Shown in pieces: positions 4,372 to 15,347 of a stretch of DNA of 35,452 nucleotides (position 1 is its first letter; each line of letters opens with the position of its first letter). The notes under the pieces were generated by a model, which saw nothing but the letters and a program-made list of their open reading frames with translations, was not told the origin of the DNA and ran no database searches. Both the position numbers and the translations under genes were made by a program. The DNA comes from a virus (lineage: Duplodnaviria; Heunggongvirae; Uroviricota; Caudoviricetes), in the IMG/VR virus record IMGVR_UViG_2563366975_000004. One strand, written 5' to 3'.

Positions 4372-4929
4372 TCAACAATGAATTTTTAGCAATTGCTCCA
4401 CAGTCATATTTTTAATTGCGCTCCGGTTTACAAGAGTCCATCCTTGTTTCTCCAGATAAAACCGGAAGGTATCCAGGGTGCAGACCATTGCGTCGTCAGG
4501 AACGGTTTCAGTGAATTTGATATTGCCGTGTTCGTCGAGACGGATAACCAGGGTGCGTCCGTCCCCGTGAATCATTTTGTCGGGAGACGGGGCGTTATTC
4601 TGGCGCAGTTCTGCTTCCATGCGGTCGAACTCAGCAATGTATGCCTCTTTAAATGCAGCGGCTTTTTTGCCAGTGAAGCCCATCACCAGGAAAACGAAGC
4701 CGTTTTTGGTGATTTGGTACATTGGGAGTTTGCGCCCGGTTGAGTCGGTGTATTCGCTTGACACAAAATTGTGCTCAGTGAATTTTGCTGAACAGTCCAG
4801 ATTGCGAATTTTATCCAACACTCGTTCGTGGCGTTTGCCAAAGAACTCGGCGATCGCAACAGACGTAGTGACAGCGCGACCATTTTCGATGGTTACGTCA
4901 GGGTGAGAAAGGGTAAGGATAGTAGCCAT
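4372..4929 (-). CDS. Phage regulatory protein Rha family (about 186 aa, start at internal ATG)
   Basis: Rha-domain motif VTTSVAIAEFFGKRHERVLDKIRNL near N-terminus; GGAGG 8 nt upstream of the ATG at 4929; the 284-aa track ORF extends upstream across an intrinsic terminator so I prefer the internal start. Confidence 0.6.
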   Translation of the reverse strand: MATILTLSHPDVTIENGRAVTTSVAIAEFFGKRHERVLDKIRNLDCSAKFTEHNFVSSEYTDSTGRKLPMYQITKNGFVFLVMGFTGKKAAAFKEAYIAEFDRMEAELRQNNAPSPDKMIHGDGRTLVIRLDEHGNIKFTETVPDDAMVCTLDTFRFYLEKQGWTLVNRSAIKNMTVEQLLKIHC

Positions 4930-5096
4930 GATGGCAGCCTCCGCGATGAATTTGATTAACTCACCACCGAGGTTTTCCACGACCATAAGGGTGGTGAGAC
5001 GTACAGGGGTGGAAATACCGGTCATCACGGAACCCGGCCAGCCTTGCGGCTGCCCTGCACGCCCCACCATAATGCGAATGTGGCTGTGCTTAACGC

Positions 5097-5121
5097 ATAA
5101 AAAAACCGCCTGAGCGCGGTT
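5097..5121 (-). terminator. Rho-independent terminator (minus strand)
   Basis: Inverted repeat aaccgc/gcggtt with 6-nt loop followed on the minus strand by a run of 7 T. Confidence 0.5.
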
Positions 5122-5414
5122 ATGCGCCGTGAATGATTTCGGGTTTCCACGCCCGGCACCCGTTTTATGAGGTGCAGGTGCACTATAATTCCACCCGTTC
5201 TGGTTTTCAATAGCTACATTCAACATTTTCTCTACCTTTCATCACCGAAGTGAACTTTGTTGATGCGGTGCCTGGTGCCTCCAGGTGACGTTAACCAGTT
5301 AACAATTAACGTCGGATACAGAGCATTCCCGTTACGCCCGTAAAAGACCGCTTGTTTTAACTGTTCCGCGTGCGCTGAGCCGCATTCACCGCATCACAAA
5401 ATTCACTTTAAAAA

Positions 5415-5467
5415 GGGCGGCAGAGCAGTCACGGAGTAGAACTGATACCGCCAAAAGTCACCAGAAA
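5415..5467 (-). ncRNA. dicF: DicF small RNA (53 nt)
   Basis: Minus-strand sequence TTTCTGGTGACTTTTGGCGGTATCAGTTCTACTCCGTGACTGCTCTGCCGCCC followed by TTTTT; matches my recollection of E. coli DicF apart from about 2 substitutions. Confidence 0.75.
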
Positions 5468-6398: not shown

Positions 6399-6617
6399 TT
6401 AACGTGGGTATGTAACCATTCTGGCAATGCTTAATGCCGCTGCTTTTTCCAGCCTGGTGATATCCTGCTCCAGAGCGGACAGATTTTCAGCCTGCTTAGT
6501 CCTGGCTTCATTGGCCCATTTCAGATCCTGCGCTGCATTAATTTTCTGGCGCATCCACTCATAAAGTTCATCATCGGTATAGTCTGGCGCGATGATGACG
6601 GGTTCTCGTTTCTGCAT
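6399..6617 (-). CDS. YdfC-like small coiled-coil protein (72 aa)
   Basis: 72 aa, same size and relative position as ydfC in the Qin dicB operon. Confidence 0.55.
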   Translation of the reverse strand: MQKREPVIIAPDYTDDELYEWMRQKINAAQDLKWANEARTKQAENLSALEQDITRLEKAAALSIARMVTYPR

Positions 6618-6646
6618 ACTGATTCCTCGCGGTGCTGTTTCGCTTA

Positions 6647-6775
6647 TCAGCCGTTAGATTTTGCCGAACTGGAAAGCACCTGTTTAAATTCGTTGAAGCT
6701 GTGAGCTTCTTCGCCTTCGGCAAGGCCTTCGAAGTATTCTTCGTAAGCCTTTTCCATGATTGTGTCAAAATCCAT
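6647..6775 (-). CDS. YdfB-like small protein (42 aa; not in ORF track)
   Basis: Hand translation MDFDTIMEKAYEEYFEGLAEGEEAHSFNEFKQVLSSSAKSNG with double stop; GGTGAG RBS; size and position match ydfB. Confidence 0.5.
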   Translation of the reverse strand: MDFDTIMEKAYEEYFEGLAEGEEAHSFNEFKQVLSSSAKSNG

Positions 6776-6776
6776 A

Positions 6777-6932
6777 TCACTCACCTGAGTTTCTTTCCAG
6801 CCAGCGACGGGCACCATTTTCGGTTTTAAACGTTTTGCTTTTGGTATACGTCATTGCGGTGAACGTACCGTCCTGGTTGGGGAACACGCCACATACCAGA
6901 GATTCGCTGTTGCCAAGATCGATAGTATCCAT
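6777..6932 (-). CDS. YdfA-like small protein (51 aa from internal ATG)
   Basis: MDTIDLGNSESLVCGVFPNQDGTFTAMTYTKSKTFKTENGARRWLERNSGE; GAGG 5 nt upstream of ATG; stop abuts ydfB-like start. Confidence 0.55.
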   Translation of the reverse strand: MDTIDLGNSESLVCGVFPNQDGTFTAMTYTKSKTFKTENGARRWLERNSGE

Positions 6933-7117
6933 GCTGACCTCATTTCCCCTTAACGCCGGGGTAGCGGAACTAAAAAACTGCTGCGCTGTTATATAAAGTG
7001 TTCCCGCCGTCATGTTCATACGCCTCGGGCTGGCTACTTAACCCCTGACCACTGCCGGGTAACTCGAAGTATTGCCTGGCGTTCTGTGGGGCGGGGTGGG
7101 TTGGTATGAAAAGAAGG

Positions 7118-7717: not shown

Positions 7718-7999
7718 ATGGAAGAATTAAGAATATTTCTCAATTCTCTTTCGTCAGATGAACAGCGTATGTTTGCATGCGAGTGTGGTACCAGCATCGG
7801 TTATCTAAGAAAGGCATTGAGTAAAGGTCAAGTGTTAGGGGCATCGTTATGTGTCCTTATTGAGCGAGCCAGTAATGGTGAAGTTACACGTCAGCAACTA
7901 AGGCCTTTTGATTGGATGAATATTTGGCCCGAGCTGGAAGATACCAAAACGTTAACACAACCACTTTCTAGGAGCTTGATTCATGAAAATCAAGCATGA
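7718..7999 (+). CDS. Cro-like / YdaS-family HTH regulator (93 aa)
   Basis: First gene of rightward operon; HTH-like GTSIGYLRKALSKGQ; resembles YdaS-type Cro analogues of Rac-like prophages. Confidence 0.6.
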   Translation: MEELRIFLNSLSSDEQRMFACECGTSIGYLRKALSKGQVLGASLCVLIERASNGEVTRQQLRPFDWMNIWPELEDTKTLTQPLSRSLIHENQA

Positions 8000-13655: not shown

Positions 13656-13824
13656 TTTTGGTTCAACTAAATACAACGTCAGTTTTGAAGCATGGCATGA
13701 ACTGTTAATGGACTATGCAGAGTTACGTGGTGGCAGTGCTGCTGATGCTGAAGCATGGCGTGATGATTATGAAGCAGGAAAAACTCCGGTCGAAGCATAT
13801 TGTGATGAGTGGGGCGATGAATGA
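13648..13824 (+). CDS. Small acidic protein (58 aa; not in ORF track)
   Basis: Hand translation MADFGSTKYNVSFEAWHELLMDYAELRGGSAADAEAWRDDYEAGKTPVEAYCDEWGDE; overlaps neighbours at both ends. Confidence 0.4.
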   Translation: MADFGSTKYNVSFEAWHELLMDYAELRGGSAADAEAWRDDYEAGKTPVEAYCDEWGDE

Positions 13825-14137
13825 GCGAGGTTAATTATCAGGAAGGGCATGAAACGGCGGGGCAAGCAAAAACAGTGGCATGGCGATATCGCTACGTGAA
13901 AAAAAAGGCGTTACGGACTTTCAGGGGAAGTAGTGGTCTGGTGACTGGAAATATGTACCGAAAAAAGAGGATTGTAACGACAGGCCGAACTATGAAATTC
14001 AGGCCTTATTCACTGCCCCGCCAGTCCCGGTTACATCAGAAGAACTGGTTAAAGCTGTGCACTTTTATGAACAACTAAAACGCGAAAATCCACCAGCATC
14101 CGGAAACCTGATTACAGATTCCCAGATAAGGCAATGA
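13821..14137 (+). pseudogene. Degraded Ea22/DUF551-like gene with frame disruption
   Basis: Starts MSEVNYQ then becomes K/R-rich nonsense after an A8 homopolymer (about 13897..13904); a protein-like segment WSGDWKYVPKKEDCNDRPNYEIQALF... sits in another frame with no start. Confidence 0.35.
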
Positions 14138-14307
14138 GCTACCTGGCGCAGAACGGGCTGATAAGTATGGGGAATGTTTTACGATGAATATTTAGACTAA
14201 AGAGTTTGTAACGCTATGTAAGTGATTTTTTCTGGTTTAGATATTTATATGTCCGGCCAAATTGAGGTGTGTTTAAATGTAATTGCACATTGATTGTAGG
14301 AGGAATA

Positions 14308-14487
14308 ATGAAAAACGCATTGCAGTTTTTGTTTGTTGCGTTCTGGTTGTTCGTATCATGTATGCCCATCATCTTCACAGCAAGGTATATGGAAAAAGTT
14401 GATGTTTTGATATTAATATTTGGATATATAAATGCCCTTTTTTTAGGGGTGTTCATGGCGGTCATGTGCATTGAATACTGGCGGTAA
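14308..14487 (+). CDS. Small hydrophobic membrane protein (59 aa) in AT-rich island
   Basis: GGAGG 6 nt upstream of ATG; two predicted hydrophobic helices; AT-rich context just upstream of hok locus. Confidence 0.45.
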   Translation: MKNALQFLFVAFWLFVSCMPIIFTARYMEKVDVLILIFGYINALFLGVFMAVMCIEYWR

Positions 14488-14574
14488 ATACAGCGAACGC
14501 CATTGGTTTAGTTGGATATTTACTGTGCCGGACAAAAACGGTTTGCGGGGAAATCTTAGTTAAGTAGAATGACT

Positions 14575-14745
14575 GCGGGTGCTTGAGGCTATCTGTCTCA
14601 GGCATGAACACCAAAAGGCAGATAGAGAAAAGCCCCAGTTAACATTACGCGTCCTGCAAGACGCTTAACATTAATCTGAGGCCATATCTATGCGACACAT
14701 AGAGATTAGCCTCTTACGGACCGAAAGGTCAAGGAGAAGCAGGCT
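14575..14745 (+). promoter_or_regulatory. hok mRNA leader with mok-like upstream reading frame
   Basis: Leader segments gcttgaggctatctgtctcagg and tagcctcttacgg...caaggagaagcaggctATG resemble the recalled R1 hok/sok leader. Confidence 0.45.
14630..14700 (-). ncRNA. Expected Sok-like antisense RNA (position approximate)
   Basis: Inferred from hok/sok locus architecture only; antisense to the mok start region; no independent sequence signature identified. Confidence 0.25.
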
Positions 14746-14901
14746 ATGAAGCAGCAAAAGGCGATGTTAATCGCCCTGATCGTCATCTGTTTAACCGTCA
14801 TAGTGACGGCACTGGTAACGAGGAAAGACCTCTGCGAGGTACGAATCCGAACCGGCCAGACGGAGGTCGCTGTCTTCACAGCTTACGAACCTGAGGAGTA
14901 A
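14746..14901 (+). CDS. hok: Hok/Gef-family type I toxin (51 aa; not in ORF track)
   Basis: MKQQKAMLIALIVICLTVIVTALVTRKDLCEVRIRTGQTEVAVFTAYEPEE closely matches the Hok/Gef consensus as I recall it; AAGGAG RBS. Confidence 0.8.
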   Translation: MKQQKAMLIALIVICLTVIVTALVTRKDLCEVRIRTGQTEVAVFTAYEPEE

Positions 14902-14971
14902 GAGACCCGGCGGGGGAGAAATCCCTCGCCACCGCTGATGTGTCAGGCATCCTCAACGCACCCGCACTTAA

Positions 14972-15000
14972 CCCGCTTCGGCGGGTTTTGTTTTTTCTGG
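14972..15000 (+). terminator. Rho-independent terminator after hok
   Basis: aacccgc-ttcg-gcgggtt hairpin followed by ttgttttttct. Confidence 0.5.
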
Positions 15001-15068
15001 TCGTTCTGGTTTACAATCCATCCGTCAGCCTGAACAACTGGCACCTGCTGCGCCAGCAGAGAAAACAG

Positions 15069-15347
15069 ATGGCGCACGATACCAAATTTTACAATTCGGA
15101 TAACTCTGCCGCCCCTGCCAGCAGGCACGGGCGGCGTTCCCGCACTTTCAAATCTGACTGGTTCCAGCATCCCCCATGCACTGAAGAACAGGCCGAGTGG
15201 CTAATTCAGTGCTACCGCAGACACGGATACGAGATTAAGAAAGCCCTCAGCCTCGATTATCGTCACTGGATAATCTCCGTCAGGCTTCCTTACTCCGAAC
15301 GACCACCGCGTCCGTCCCGCACATTCCAGCAACGCATCTGGAGGTAA
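15069..15347 (+). CDS. Hypothetical protein (about 92 aa from internal ATG)
   Basis: Only the C-terminal part of track ORF 14940..15347 is plausible because its N-terminus runs through the hok terminator; weak RBS. Confidence 0.3.
   Translation: MAHDTKFYNSDNSAAPASRHGRRSRTFKSDWFQHPPCTEEQAEWLIQCYRRHGYEIKKALSLDYRHWIISVRLPYSERPPRPSRTFQQRIWR

What the first reader, a model, noticed from the sequence alone, without database searches (positions are those of the whole stretch)
14180..15000. hok-type type I toxin locus with an additional small membrane-protein gene in an adjacent AT-rich island
A 51-aa Hok/Gef-family toxin gene (14746..14901) with an R1-like leader and downstream terminator is preceded by an AT-rich block carrying a 59-aa two-helix membrane protein gene (14308..14487) with a strong GGAGG RBS. 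The upstream protein matches no toxin family I can recall, so this may be a second membrane toxin or an unrelated moron that has landed next to hok. The expected Sok antisense RNA is not annotated with certainty.
Basis: partly seen in the sequence, partly recalled or inferred. Interest (0 to 1): 0.55.

Follow-up and report, generated by a model that had tools for sequence, protein, structure and literature searches.

The report
Intact hokD locus plus small membrane gene
A lambdoid E. coli prophage carries a complete, ordinary hok/sok toxin–antitoxin locus (the undamaged form of K-12's truncated hokD) and, just upstream, a real but uncharacterised and largely unannotated gene for a 59-residue two-helix membrane protein whose function is still unknown.

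Summary
14746..14901 encodes HokD, and every hok/sok regulatory element is present and can be placed: the hok promoter, tac, the Sok RNA gene and its promoter, a mok-like leader ORF, fbi and the terminator. This is the intact ancestor of K-12 hokD (relF), which lost its leader through an insertion at the start codon. It is already known and routinely annotated.

The 59-aa ORF (14308..14487, "X") is a genuine gene. A 41%-identical paralog of the same length sits at the ttcA–uspF (Rac attachment) site. The two align without indels, dN/dS is about 0.19, and the other five frames are closed in the paralog. X is predicted to be a two-helix membrane hairpin. It matches no Pfam, PHROG, NCBIfam, PADLOC or PDB family. 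The family appears confined to E. coli/Shigella: X occurs in 1570 and the paralog in 1045 of 5426 complete genomes.

Both copies sit immediately upstream of a hok locus, which in the paralog is only a remnant. Most phage hok loci lack X, so it is a separate AT-rich module. I found no promoter, terminator or conserved antisense promoter for X, so nothing supports a second type I toxin. It is most likely an accessory inner-membrane protein read from the early-right operon. Interest is modest.

The parts
14138..14530 (+). AT-rich module (GC about 0.35-0.41) holding gene X and its flanks. The right boundary is where phage hok loci that lack X start to match (14530-14558).
14298..14303 (+). Shine-Dalgarno AGGAGG of gene X, 4 nt before the ATG. 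Position 14301 is polymorphic (A/G).
14308..14487 (+). Gene X: a 59-aa two-helix inner-membrane protein of an uncharacterised E. coli/Shigella family. Conserved motifs are W13, S17-C18-x-P-I-I-x-T24, F38-G-x-x-N-A-L44, V48-F49 and I55-E-x-W-R59.
14543..14570 (+). hok promoter: TTGCGG (14543-48), 16-nt spacer, TAGAAT (14565-70). The -10 hexamer is invariant in the aligned hok loci.
14577..14997 (+). Full-length hok mRNA. The 5' end is inferred from position 1 of the Rfam model and from my recollection of the R1 hok mRNA 5' end. The 3' end is at the terminator.
14577..14588 (+). tac element (GGGTGCTTGAGG). It pairs with fbi in the minimum-free-energy fold.
14628..14696 (-). Sok antisense RNA homolog (about 69 nt). 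It was mapped by alignment to the annotated sokW of phage 933W. It has a long hairpin followed by CUUUUCUCU, and it covers the SD and AUG of the mok-like ORF.
14703..14732 (-). Sok promoter: TTGACC (14732-14727), 18-nt spacer, TAATCT (14708-14703).
   Evidence: sequence read
14690..14749 (+). mok-like leader ORF: 19 codons (MRHIEISLLRTERSRRSRL) with SD GAGG at 14678-81. Its UGA stop overlaps the hok AUG (AUGA).
14746..14901 (+). hokD CDS, 51 aa. Its SD is AAGGAG at 14731-36.
14951..14963 (+). fbi element (CCTCAACGCACCC), complementary to tac.
14970..14997 (+). Intrinsic terminator of hok mRNA: a 7-bp GC-rich stem followed by a T run.

Best explanation
The region holds two independent modules inside the early-right (cro-to-Q) gene array of a complete lambdoid prophage integrated beside potC.

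(1) A complete hokD/sokD type I toxin-antitoxin locus that works like R1 hok/sok and 933W hokW/sokW. A stable hok mRNA is closed by 5'-tac/3'-fbi pairing. Hok translation is coupled to a short upstream mok-like ORF. The Sok antisense RNA covers that ORF's ribosome-binding site. This is the undisrupted form of the locus that K-12 retains only as the leaderless relF/hokD.

(2) An AT-rich accessory module encoding X, a 59-aa protein that inserts into the inner membrane as a two-helix hairpin. X has a good SD but no recognisable promoter or terminator of its own. It is therefore most likely transcribed with the early-right operon on prophage induction, and possibly at a low level in the lysogen.

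What is shown: X is a real gene, it is hydrophobic, it was conserved over the long term, and it is separable from hok. What is inferred: that X acts at the membrane as a phage accessory factor, for example in superinfection exclusion or by modulating a host membrane protein or the envelope. I do not think it is a second antisense-controlled toxin. Its constant position next to hok is best explained by tight physical linkage (90 bp) inherited from a common prophage ancestor.
For: hok locus:
- Pfam HOK_GEF hit and PGAP hokD annotation in genomes identical to the window.
- Rfam leader match at 106.7 bits.
- tac-fbi pairing in the MFE fold, z = -8.3.
- Sok mapped onto the annotated sokW, with a hairpin at z = -5.7.
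- The hok and Sok promoters are the top PWM hits in their regions.
- hokW/sokW has been shown experimentally to be a type I TA that aids phage release (PMC8621323).
- K-12 relF is co-transcribed with relBE (PMC3598666), and MG1655 matches only window 14732..14995.

X is a real gene:
- Paralog P0071/P0065 is 41% identical and also 59 aa.
- The codon alignment has no indel, pN 0.33 against pS 0.72 (dN/dS about 0.19), and differences by codon position of 25/16/31. Only this frame is open in the paralog.
- 110 of 111 X copies and 22 of 22 paralog copies are intact.
- Within the ORF 5 of 180 positions vary, against 8 of 128 upstream and 4 of 89 in the spacer, leaving out the divergent copy L009; I counted these by hand from the variable-site list.

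Membrane hairpin.

Separate module.

Context: a continuous same-strand array from the cro-like gene to Q.

No own promoter, terminator or conserved antisense promoter.
Against: - There is no expression or phenotype data for X. I found no literature and no Ribo-seq hit.
- Within-subfamily polymorphism is 13 nonsynonymous to 1 synonymous. Recent purifying selection is therefore not visible, and the gene could be drifting.
- One diverged copy (L009) is frameshifted although hok is intact.
- X is found only next to a hok leader or a hok remnant (87 of 87 loci). A functional tie to hok is therefore not excluded.
- AT-rich DNA can hide weak or non-consensus promoters that the scans miss.
Confidence: 0.6

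Rival explanations
1. X is a second, independent type I (or GhoT-like) membrane toxin, so the region is a tandem two-toxin cassette. A small RNA antisense to X's mRNA, not yet seen, would keep it silent.
For: X has the right size and architecture: 59 aa, very hydrophobic, and two TM helices like GhoT/OrtT. It has a strong SD and sits in a prophage next to another membrane toxin. It stays intact at the ttcA site although hok there is destroyed.
Against: X matches no toxin family in Pfam (GhoT/OrtT is, to my knowledge, one of its families), NCBIfam or PADLOC at E <= 0.1. It has no promoter or terminator of its own. The best minus-strand promoter-like sites lie at different ORF positions in the two paralogs, so no antisense gene is conserved. 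The 5' region has no unusually stable structure (z = -0.6 and -0.4). Rfam finds nothing in 14000-14576 even at E <= 1.
Confidence: 0.15
2. X is functionally tied to hok. It could be a membrane partner that modulates Hok (immunity or enhancer). Alternatively, read-through from the X transcript could produce 5'-extended hok mRNAs that escape tac-fbi closure and so trigger Hok during induction.
For: In every locus examined X is contiguous with the hok leader (87 of 87). The diverged paralog is also followed by a hok remnant. There is no terminator between X and the hok promoter. When an IS-containing segment split the locus in K-12-like Qin prophages, X stayed with the leader and Sok half. HokW production rises on prophage induction (PMC8621323).
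Against: Most hok loci of this same type lack X: 77 of 79 phage records, and roughly 3400 E. coli genomes match hok but not X (4938 against 1570). X persists intact where hok is deleted, and hok persists where X is frameshifted (L009). A 90-bp distance is enough to explain the co-inheritance.
Confidence: 0.12
3. X is a decaying or non-functional ORF, a relic of a once-useful gene, and the AT-rich block today is functionless spacer or H-NS-bound DNA.
For: Polymorphism is 13 nonsynonymous to 1 synonymous, indistinguishable from neutrality. PGAP does not call the gene in RefSeq genomes. The copy in L009 is frameshifted. X has no promoter of its own.
Against: Over the long term dN/dS is about 0.19 with no indel across 59 codons, while both flanks need gaps to align. 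132 of 133 surveyed copies are intact. The replacements are conservative (V/A, V/I, I/M, M/I). Within the ORF 5 of 180 positions vary, against 8 of 128 upstream and 4 of 89 in the spacer, leaving out the divergent copy L009; I counted these by hand from the variable-site list. The SD and ATG are kept.
Confidence: 0.13

Closest known systems
hokD (relF) of E. coli K-12 Qin prophage, and hokW/sokW of Stx phages 933W/Sp5
   Same: The Hok protein carries the same accession (WP_000813254.1) as hokD of a K-12-like Qin prophage, and MG1655 hokD is 98.9% identical in DNA over the matching stretch. The leader, Sok and 3' elements align base for base with 933W hokW/sokW (about 91% identity). The prophage setting is also the same.
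   Different: K-12 hokD has lost everything upstream of its SD: an insertion of IS-flxA-ydfV-relBE sits at the start codon. Here the locus is whole. The mok-like ORF is a 19-codon ORF ending in AUGA. In 933W it is instead an in-frame 70-aa Mok, and in phage Rac and L009 a frame-shifted overlapping ORF.
hok/sok (parB) of plasmid R1
   Same: The mRNA architecture is the same: tac/fbi closure, mok-coupled translation, Sok targeting the mok TIR, and a Sok promoter inside the leader. The R1 details come from my own knowledge of the Gerdes-lab model.
   Different: This locus sits in a chromosomal prophage, the Hok sequence belongs to the Gef/RelF branch, and the mok frame and length differ. Post-segregational killing was not tested.
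GhoT/OrtT small two-TM membrane toxins (type V TA)
   Same: X has a similar size (57 against 59 aa) and a predicted two-helix membrane hairpin. The comparison of architecture rests on my own knowledge; the X model is.
   Different: No sequence similarity was detectable (no Pfam hit at E <= 0.1). There is no GhoS-like partner gene, and toxicity of X is unknown.
Small phage inner-membrane accessory proteins (superinfection-exclusion proteins such as T4 Imm or HK97 gp15; class II holins)
   Same: X is likewise a small helical membrane protein encoded among early or accessory genes of a temperate phage, in an AT-rich moron-like block.
   Different: X has no PHROG, Pfam or BFVD structural match. 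It is not in the lysis cassette, and no exclusion phenotype is known.

Membership tests
Hok/Gef toxin family (PF01848), for ORF 14746..14901 | Sequence matches the family HMM above the curated threshold | tested here: met
   82.9 bits against a cut-off of 22, E = 1.2e-23. PGAP names the identical protein HokD.
hok/sok type I TA locus | Conserved hok mRNA leader structure | tested here: met
   RF01794 matches at 106.7 bits against a gathering score of 59, covering model positions 1-157.
hok/sok type I TA locus | 5' tac / 3' fbi long-range pairing plus a 3' terminator | tested here: met
   In the MFE fold of 14577-14996, nt 1-12 pair with 14951-63 (z = -8.3). The terminator is at 14970-87.
hok/sok type I TA locus | Sok antisense RNA gene with its own promoter and terminator, overlapping the mok TIR | tested here: met
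   Alignment to annotated sokW places Sok at 14628-14696 on the minus strand. Its hairpin plus U tract folds at z = -5.7. The promoter is TTGACC-18-TAATCT. Transcription itself was not shown.
hok/sok type I TA locus | An upstream mok reading frame translationally coupled to hok | tested here: met
   A 19-codon ORF at 14690..14749 has an SD, and its UGA stop overlaps the hok AUG. Its form differs from R1 and 933W mok.
hok/sok type I TA locus | Hok toxicity and neutralisation by Sok | not testable with these tools
   Shown only for the homologous hokW/sokW (PMC8621323).
Type I toxin (generic), for gene X 14308..14487 | Small hydrophobic membrane peptide | tested here: met
   59 aa, GRAVY 1.31, two hydrophobic segments, and a helical hairpin model.
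Type I toxin (generic), for gene X | A cis- or nearby-encoded antisense RNA with its own promoter and terminator | tested here: inconclusive
   No consensus promoter or terminator on either strand. The best PWM sites on the minus strand are not conserved between paralogs. Rfam finds nothing. No RNA data are available.
Type I toxin (generic), for gene X | Membership of a described toxin family (Hok, Ldr, Ibs, TisB, ShoB, ZorO, DinQ, and others) | tested here: not met
   No hit in Pfam, NCBIfam or PADLOC at E <= 0.1. That these libraries hold models of the toxin families named is my own knowledge, not checked here.
GhoT/OrtT | Match to the GhoT/OrtT family profile; adjacent ghoS-type antitoxin | tested here: not met
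   No Pfam hit. The neighbours are a frameshifted phage ORF and hok.
Phage holin / superinfection-exclusion families | Match to a PHROG or Pfam holin or Sie family, or a structural match | tested here: not met
   No PHROG hit. BFVD Foldseek gives no match better than E = 1.8. No PDB sequence hit.

The most novel reading that the evidence does not exclude
X and its paralog define a hok-associated small membrane protein family. In this reading, X either modulates Hok at the membrane or, through read-through transcription from the early-right operon, switches hok from its Sok-silenced state to expression during prophage induction. That would make this a three-component hok system. Alternatively, X would be an unrecognised two-TM membrane toxin forming a tandem toxin cassette.
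Probability: 0.2. Interest if true: 0.65.

Novelty: new member of a known kind. Interest (0 to 1): 0.33.

Why it matters
The hok part matters only as tidy bookkeeping. It shows what the K-12 relF/hokD locus looked like before an insertion cut off its leader and Sok gene, and it places Sok, mok, tac and fbi for this common prophage allele.

Gene X matters a little more. It is a conserved small membrane protein present in about 29% of complete E. coli genomes, and its paralog is present in about 19%. These include O104:H4 and ST131 lineages. RefSeq annotation largely omits it and no family database contains it. If it proves to be toxic, to exclude phages or to modulate Hok, it would add a component to a classic model system. 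If not, it is one more prophage moron of unknown role.

Tried and rejected
- Family searches for X in Pfam, PHROGs, NCBIfam and PADLOC gave no hits. PDB sequence search gave none. BFVD fold search gave only non-specific helical hairpins at E >= 1.8.
- Remote homology searches found only the two E. coli/Shigella subfamilies. These were an exhaustive phmmer over 1.84 billion representatives, a profile search, and genome, viral and metagenome locus scans. The remaining hits were fragments or spurious TM matches.
- The minus-strand 85-aa ORF (14214..14471), which one phage record annotates in this region, is rejected. Its frame is full of stops in the paralog.
- The GTG-start 72-aa version of X is rejected. 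The extension is closed by stops in the paralog, and the SD serves the ATG.
- I looked for K-12 names or Ribo-seq evidence. MG1655 lacks X entirely. The peptide strings are absent from the searchable literature and from the supplements of the O157 Sakai small-gene study. The 2026 Hok survey preprint showed no upstream partner gene in the passages I retrieved.
- Searches for a promoter, terminator or antisense promoter for X found nothing convincing or conserved.
- A sensitive Rfam scan of 14000-15100 found only the hok leader, plus sub-threshold noise such as an isrK-like 27-bit hit over the hok 3' UTR.
- A repeat search found no flanking repeats around the island.
- A comparison of X with the window's class II holin failed because my coordinates, transferred from another strain, were wrong. 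I dropped it.

Full report
**Setting**

The window is a complete lambdoid prophage integrated beside potC. It runs from int-xis-exo-dicB through a cI/cro-like switch, replication genes, a nin-like region, DUF968, rusA, Q, tRNAs, the lysis genes, terminase, head and tail. The 851 bases around the finding are 100% identical to prophages in E. coli O104:H4 and other human isolates. All genes from the cro-like gene to Q lie on the + strand, and the finding sits inside this early-right array.

**The hok locus**

ORF 14746..14901 encodes a 51-aa protein that matches Pfam HOK_GEF (82.9 bits, E = 1.2e-23). It is the protein PGAP calls HokD (WP_000813254.1). Rfam RF01794 matches 14577..14748 over its full length at 106.7 bits, against a gathering score of 59. 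This match is on the + strand and ends at the hok AUG, so the model labelled 'sok' in fact describes the hok leader in the sense orientation.

The regulatory elements can each be placed:
- **Fold and terminator.** Folding 14577..14996 gives a highly stable structure (-169 kcal/mol, z = -8.3). The first 12 nt (tac, GGGUGCUUGAGG) pair with 14951-14963 (fbi, CCUCAACGCACCC) just before the terminator hairpin at 14970-14987.
- **Sok.** Aligning the locus with phage 933W, where sokW, mokW and hokW are annotated, puts Sok at about 14628..14696 on the minus strand. That stretch folds into a long hairpin followed by CUUUUCUCU (z = -5.7).
- **Promoters.** A position-weight scan recovers TTGACC-18-TAATCT (14732→14703, minus strand) as the best promoter-like site for Sok. 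It recovers TTGCGG-16-TAGAAT (14543-14570) as the best for hok. The hok -10 hexamer is invariant across the aligned hok loci.
- **mok-like ORF.** Sok covers the SD (GAGG, 14678-81) and the AUG (14690) of a 19-codon leader ORF whose UGA overlaps the hok AUG (AUGA). Other alleles of this ORF are in frame with hok, as in 933W MokW (70 aa), or in the third frame, as in phage Rac, L009 and R1. All three frames therefore occur. This fits a role for mok as a ribosome track rather than as a protein.

Function was not tested here. [quoted passage not shown]

**Relation to K-12**

MG1655 matches only window 14732..14995, that is the hok SD, CDS and 3' UTR. In K-12-like Qin prophages (CP026085, phage PhiR42_1 and many IMG/VR contigs), the island plus the whole hok leader, up to and including ...GGAGAAGCAGGCTAT, is followed by an ISNCY element, ydfW, flxA, ydfV and relBE. 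The same 15 nt then recur immediately before the hokD ATG. The window therefore shows the ancestral, uninterrupted hokD locus. K-12 relF/hokD lost its leader and Sok through an insertion at the start codon and is now read from the relBE promoter (PMC3598666).

**Gene X (14308..14487)**

PGAP leaves X unannotated in the RefSeq genomes I inspected. GenBank holds it only as 'hypothetical' or 'putative membrane protein'.

Distribution is as follows:
- The island is in 1570 of 5426 complete E. coli genomes at 95-100% identity.
- In 1069 of them the full island-hok arrangement is contiguous.
- An exhaustive phmmer search of 1.84 billion representatives found, besides near-identical copies and fragments, one diverged relative, P0065/P0071. 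It is 41% identical and also exactly 59 aa.
- That paralog lies in 1045 of 5426 genomes, between ttcA with an integrase remnant and uspF. This is the Rac attachment site, and the paralog is unannotated there too.
- Profile and locus searches in proteins, genomes, IMG/VR and metagenomes added no third subfamily and no host outside E. coli/Shigella.

*Is X a gene?* The two paralogs are 59% identical in DNA and align from ATG to TAA without a gap, whereas both flanks need gaps. Differences by codon position are 25/16/31, pN is 0.33 against pS 0.72, and dN/dS is about 0.19 with dS saturated. In the paralog all five other frames are closed, including the minus-strand 85-aa ORF that one phage record annotates in this region. 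Of the copies surveyed, 110 of 111 X and 22 of 22 paralog copies are intact. This is good evidence for a protein-coding gene that was under purifying selection over the long term.

Recent constraint is not visible, however. Polymorphisms within the subfamilies are 13 nonsynonymous (all conservative) to 1 synonymous, which is about the neutral expectation. One diverged copy (L009) is frameshifted next to an intact hok.

*What is X?* It has two hydrophobic segments (GRAVY 1.31). The AF2 model is a helical hairpin, H2-26 and H31-58, at pLDDT 72. Residues conserved between the paralogs include W13, S17-C18-x-P-I-I-x-T24, F38-G-x-x-N42-A-L, V48-F49 and the C-terminal I-E-x-W-R. Polar residues inside the helices suggest helix packing or oligomerisation, but this is inference. 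X has no hit in Pfam, PHROGs, NCBIfam, PADLOC or PDB, and no meaningful fold match.

**Relation of X to hok**

- In all 87 loci where the comparison was possible, X is contiguous with the hok leader.
- The paralog is followed, after about 45 homologous bases, by the 3' half of a hok gene. This remnant is about 80% identical to hok from codon ~23 onwards, and the leader and 5' half are deleted. The X-then-hok order therefore predates the split of two quite divergent prophage lineages.
- Conversely, 77 of 79 phage records with this hok type lack X, with homology starting at 14530-14558. Roughly 3400 E. coli genomes have the hok sequence without the island.
- X survives where hok is destroyed, and hok survives where X is frameshifted.

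The simplest reading is two separable modules held together by a 90-bp distance. A functional tie remains possible but is not indicated.

**Is X a second type I toxin?**

Its architecture is compatible, but nothing else points that way:
- There is no consensus promoter or terminator on either strand around X.
- The 5' and 3' regions show no unusually stable structure (z between -0.4 and -1.2).
- The best minus-strand promoter-like sites fall at different ORF positions in the two paralogs.
- Rfam finds nothing in the X region, even at E <= 1.

With no terminator before the hok promoter, X is most simply read as part of the early-right transcript. Any such transcript would continue into hok, which is the basis of the more speculative read-through idea.

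**Verdict**

The hok locus is a known, complete hokD/sokD system, and Sok is now placed. X is a real, conserved small membrane-protein gene of an undescribed, narrowly distributed family, and it is largely unannotated. Its function is unknown. My best estimate is a prophage accessory inner-membrane protein (about 0.6). The alternatives are a second toxin (0.15), a hok modulator (0.12) and a decaying relic (0.13). Overall interest is modest.

Noticed in passing
window 14577..14748 (+): The Rfam family RF01794, named 'sok antitoxin (CssrC)', matches the strand that encodes hok, and the match ends at the hok AUG. The model therefore describes the hok mRNA leader rather than the antisense Sok RNA. 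Annotation pipelines that use it will put 'sok' on the wrong strand.
   Followed up: partly
L004 (CP026085) 4553-4568 and 7842-7857; MG1655 L006 4025-4289: In K-12-like Qin prophages a 3.3-kb segment (ISNCY, ydfW, flxA, ydfV, relBE) is inserted exactly at the hok start codon. The 15-nt GGAGAAGCAGGCTAT appears at both junctions. The orphaned leader plus Sok gene remains upstream next to gene X. MG1655 has additionally deleted that part.
   Followed up: yes
window 14690..14749 and homologous loci (L097, L098, L009, IMG/VR loci): The mok-like leader ORF exists in three allelic frames relative to hok. Here it is 19 codons ending in AUGA. In 933W-like alleles it is an in-frame 70-aa fusion. In Rac/L009/R1-like alleles it is a frame-shifted overlapping ORF of about 68 aa. 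The frames are switched by 1- and 2-nt indels at 14693/4 and 14729.
   Followed up: partly
L091 5000-7200 (ttcA-uspF interval, about 1045 E. coli genomes): A decayed prophage or island remnant sits at the Rac attachment site. It holds an integrase fragment, an intact X paralog, the 3' half of a hok gene and frameshifted ABC-3 permease fragments. PGAP annotates nothing there in the 801 bases around the paralog that I searched (L091 5700-6500).
   Followed up: partly
window 4987..5466 (-): A cluster of prophage sRNA genes lies in the immunity-left region: C4 antisense RNA (4987-5074), isrK (5099-5175) and DicF (5415-5466).
   Followed up: no
window 19277..20357 (+): Downstream of Q there are two tRNA genes (19277-19349, 19360-19433). 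They are followed by two tandem copies of the STnc100 sRNA family (19700-19893 and 20169-20357; 138 and 132 bits).
   Followed up: no
window ~6557..7038 (-), from L143 28415-28896: A RelB/RelE-family type II toxin-antitoxin pair sits next to the prophage repressor-like gene. This prophage therefore carries both a type I and a type II TA system, but not fused into one operon as in K-12 relBEF.
   Followed up: no
window 13821..14137 (+): The ORF just upstream of the island is annotated by PGAP as frameshifted with an internal stop in genomes identical to the window. Its 3' end is still recognisable upstream of the X paralog at the ttcA site.
   Followed up: partly
window 14214..14471 (-) and ~14940-15120 (-): At least one database record annotates an ORF on the strand opposite to X: a minus-strand hypothetical protein in phage PhiR42_1. 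Two other phage records list a product called 'hornerin' somewhere under the 851-base match; I did not check its position or strand. Other records annotate a 60-aa ORF opposite the hok 3' UTR (WP_001112736.1). The ORF opposite X is not conserved in the paralog and is probably spurious.
   Followed up: partly
window 14884..14887 (TACG in hok codon Tyr47): The hok CDS contains the UACG context at its C-terminal tyrosine codon. The Hok survey preprint (10.1101/2025.08.07.668861) says that in hokC/D/E this codon is subject to TadA A-to-I recoding to Cys.
   Followed up: no
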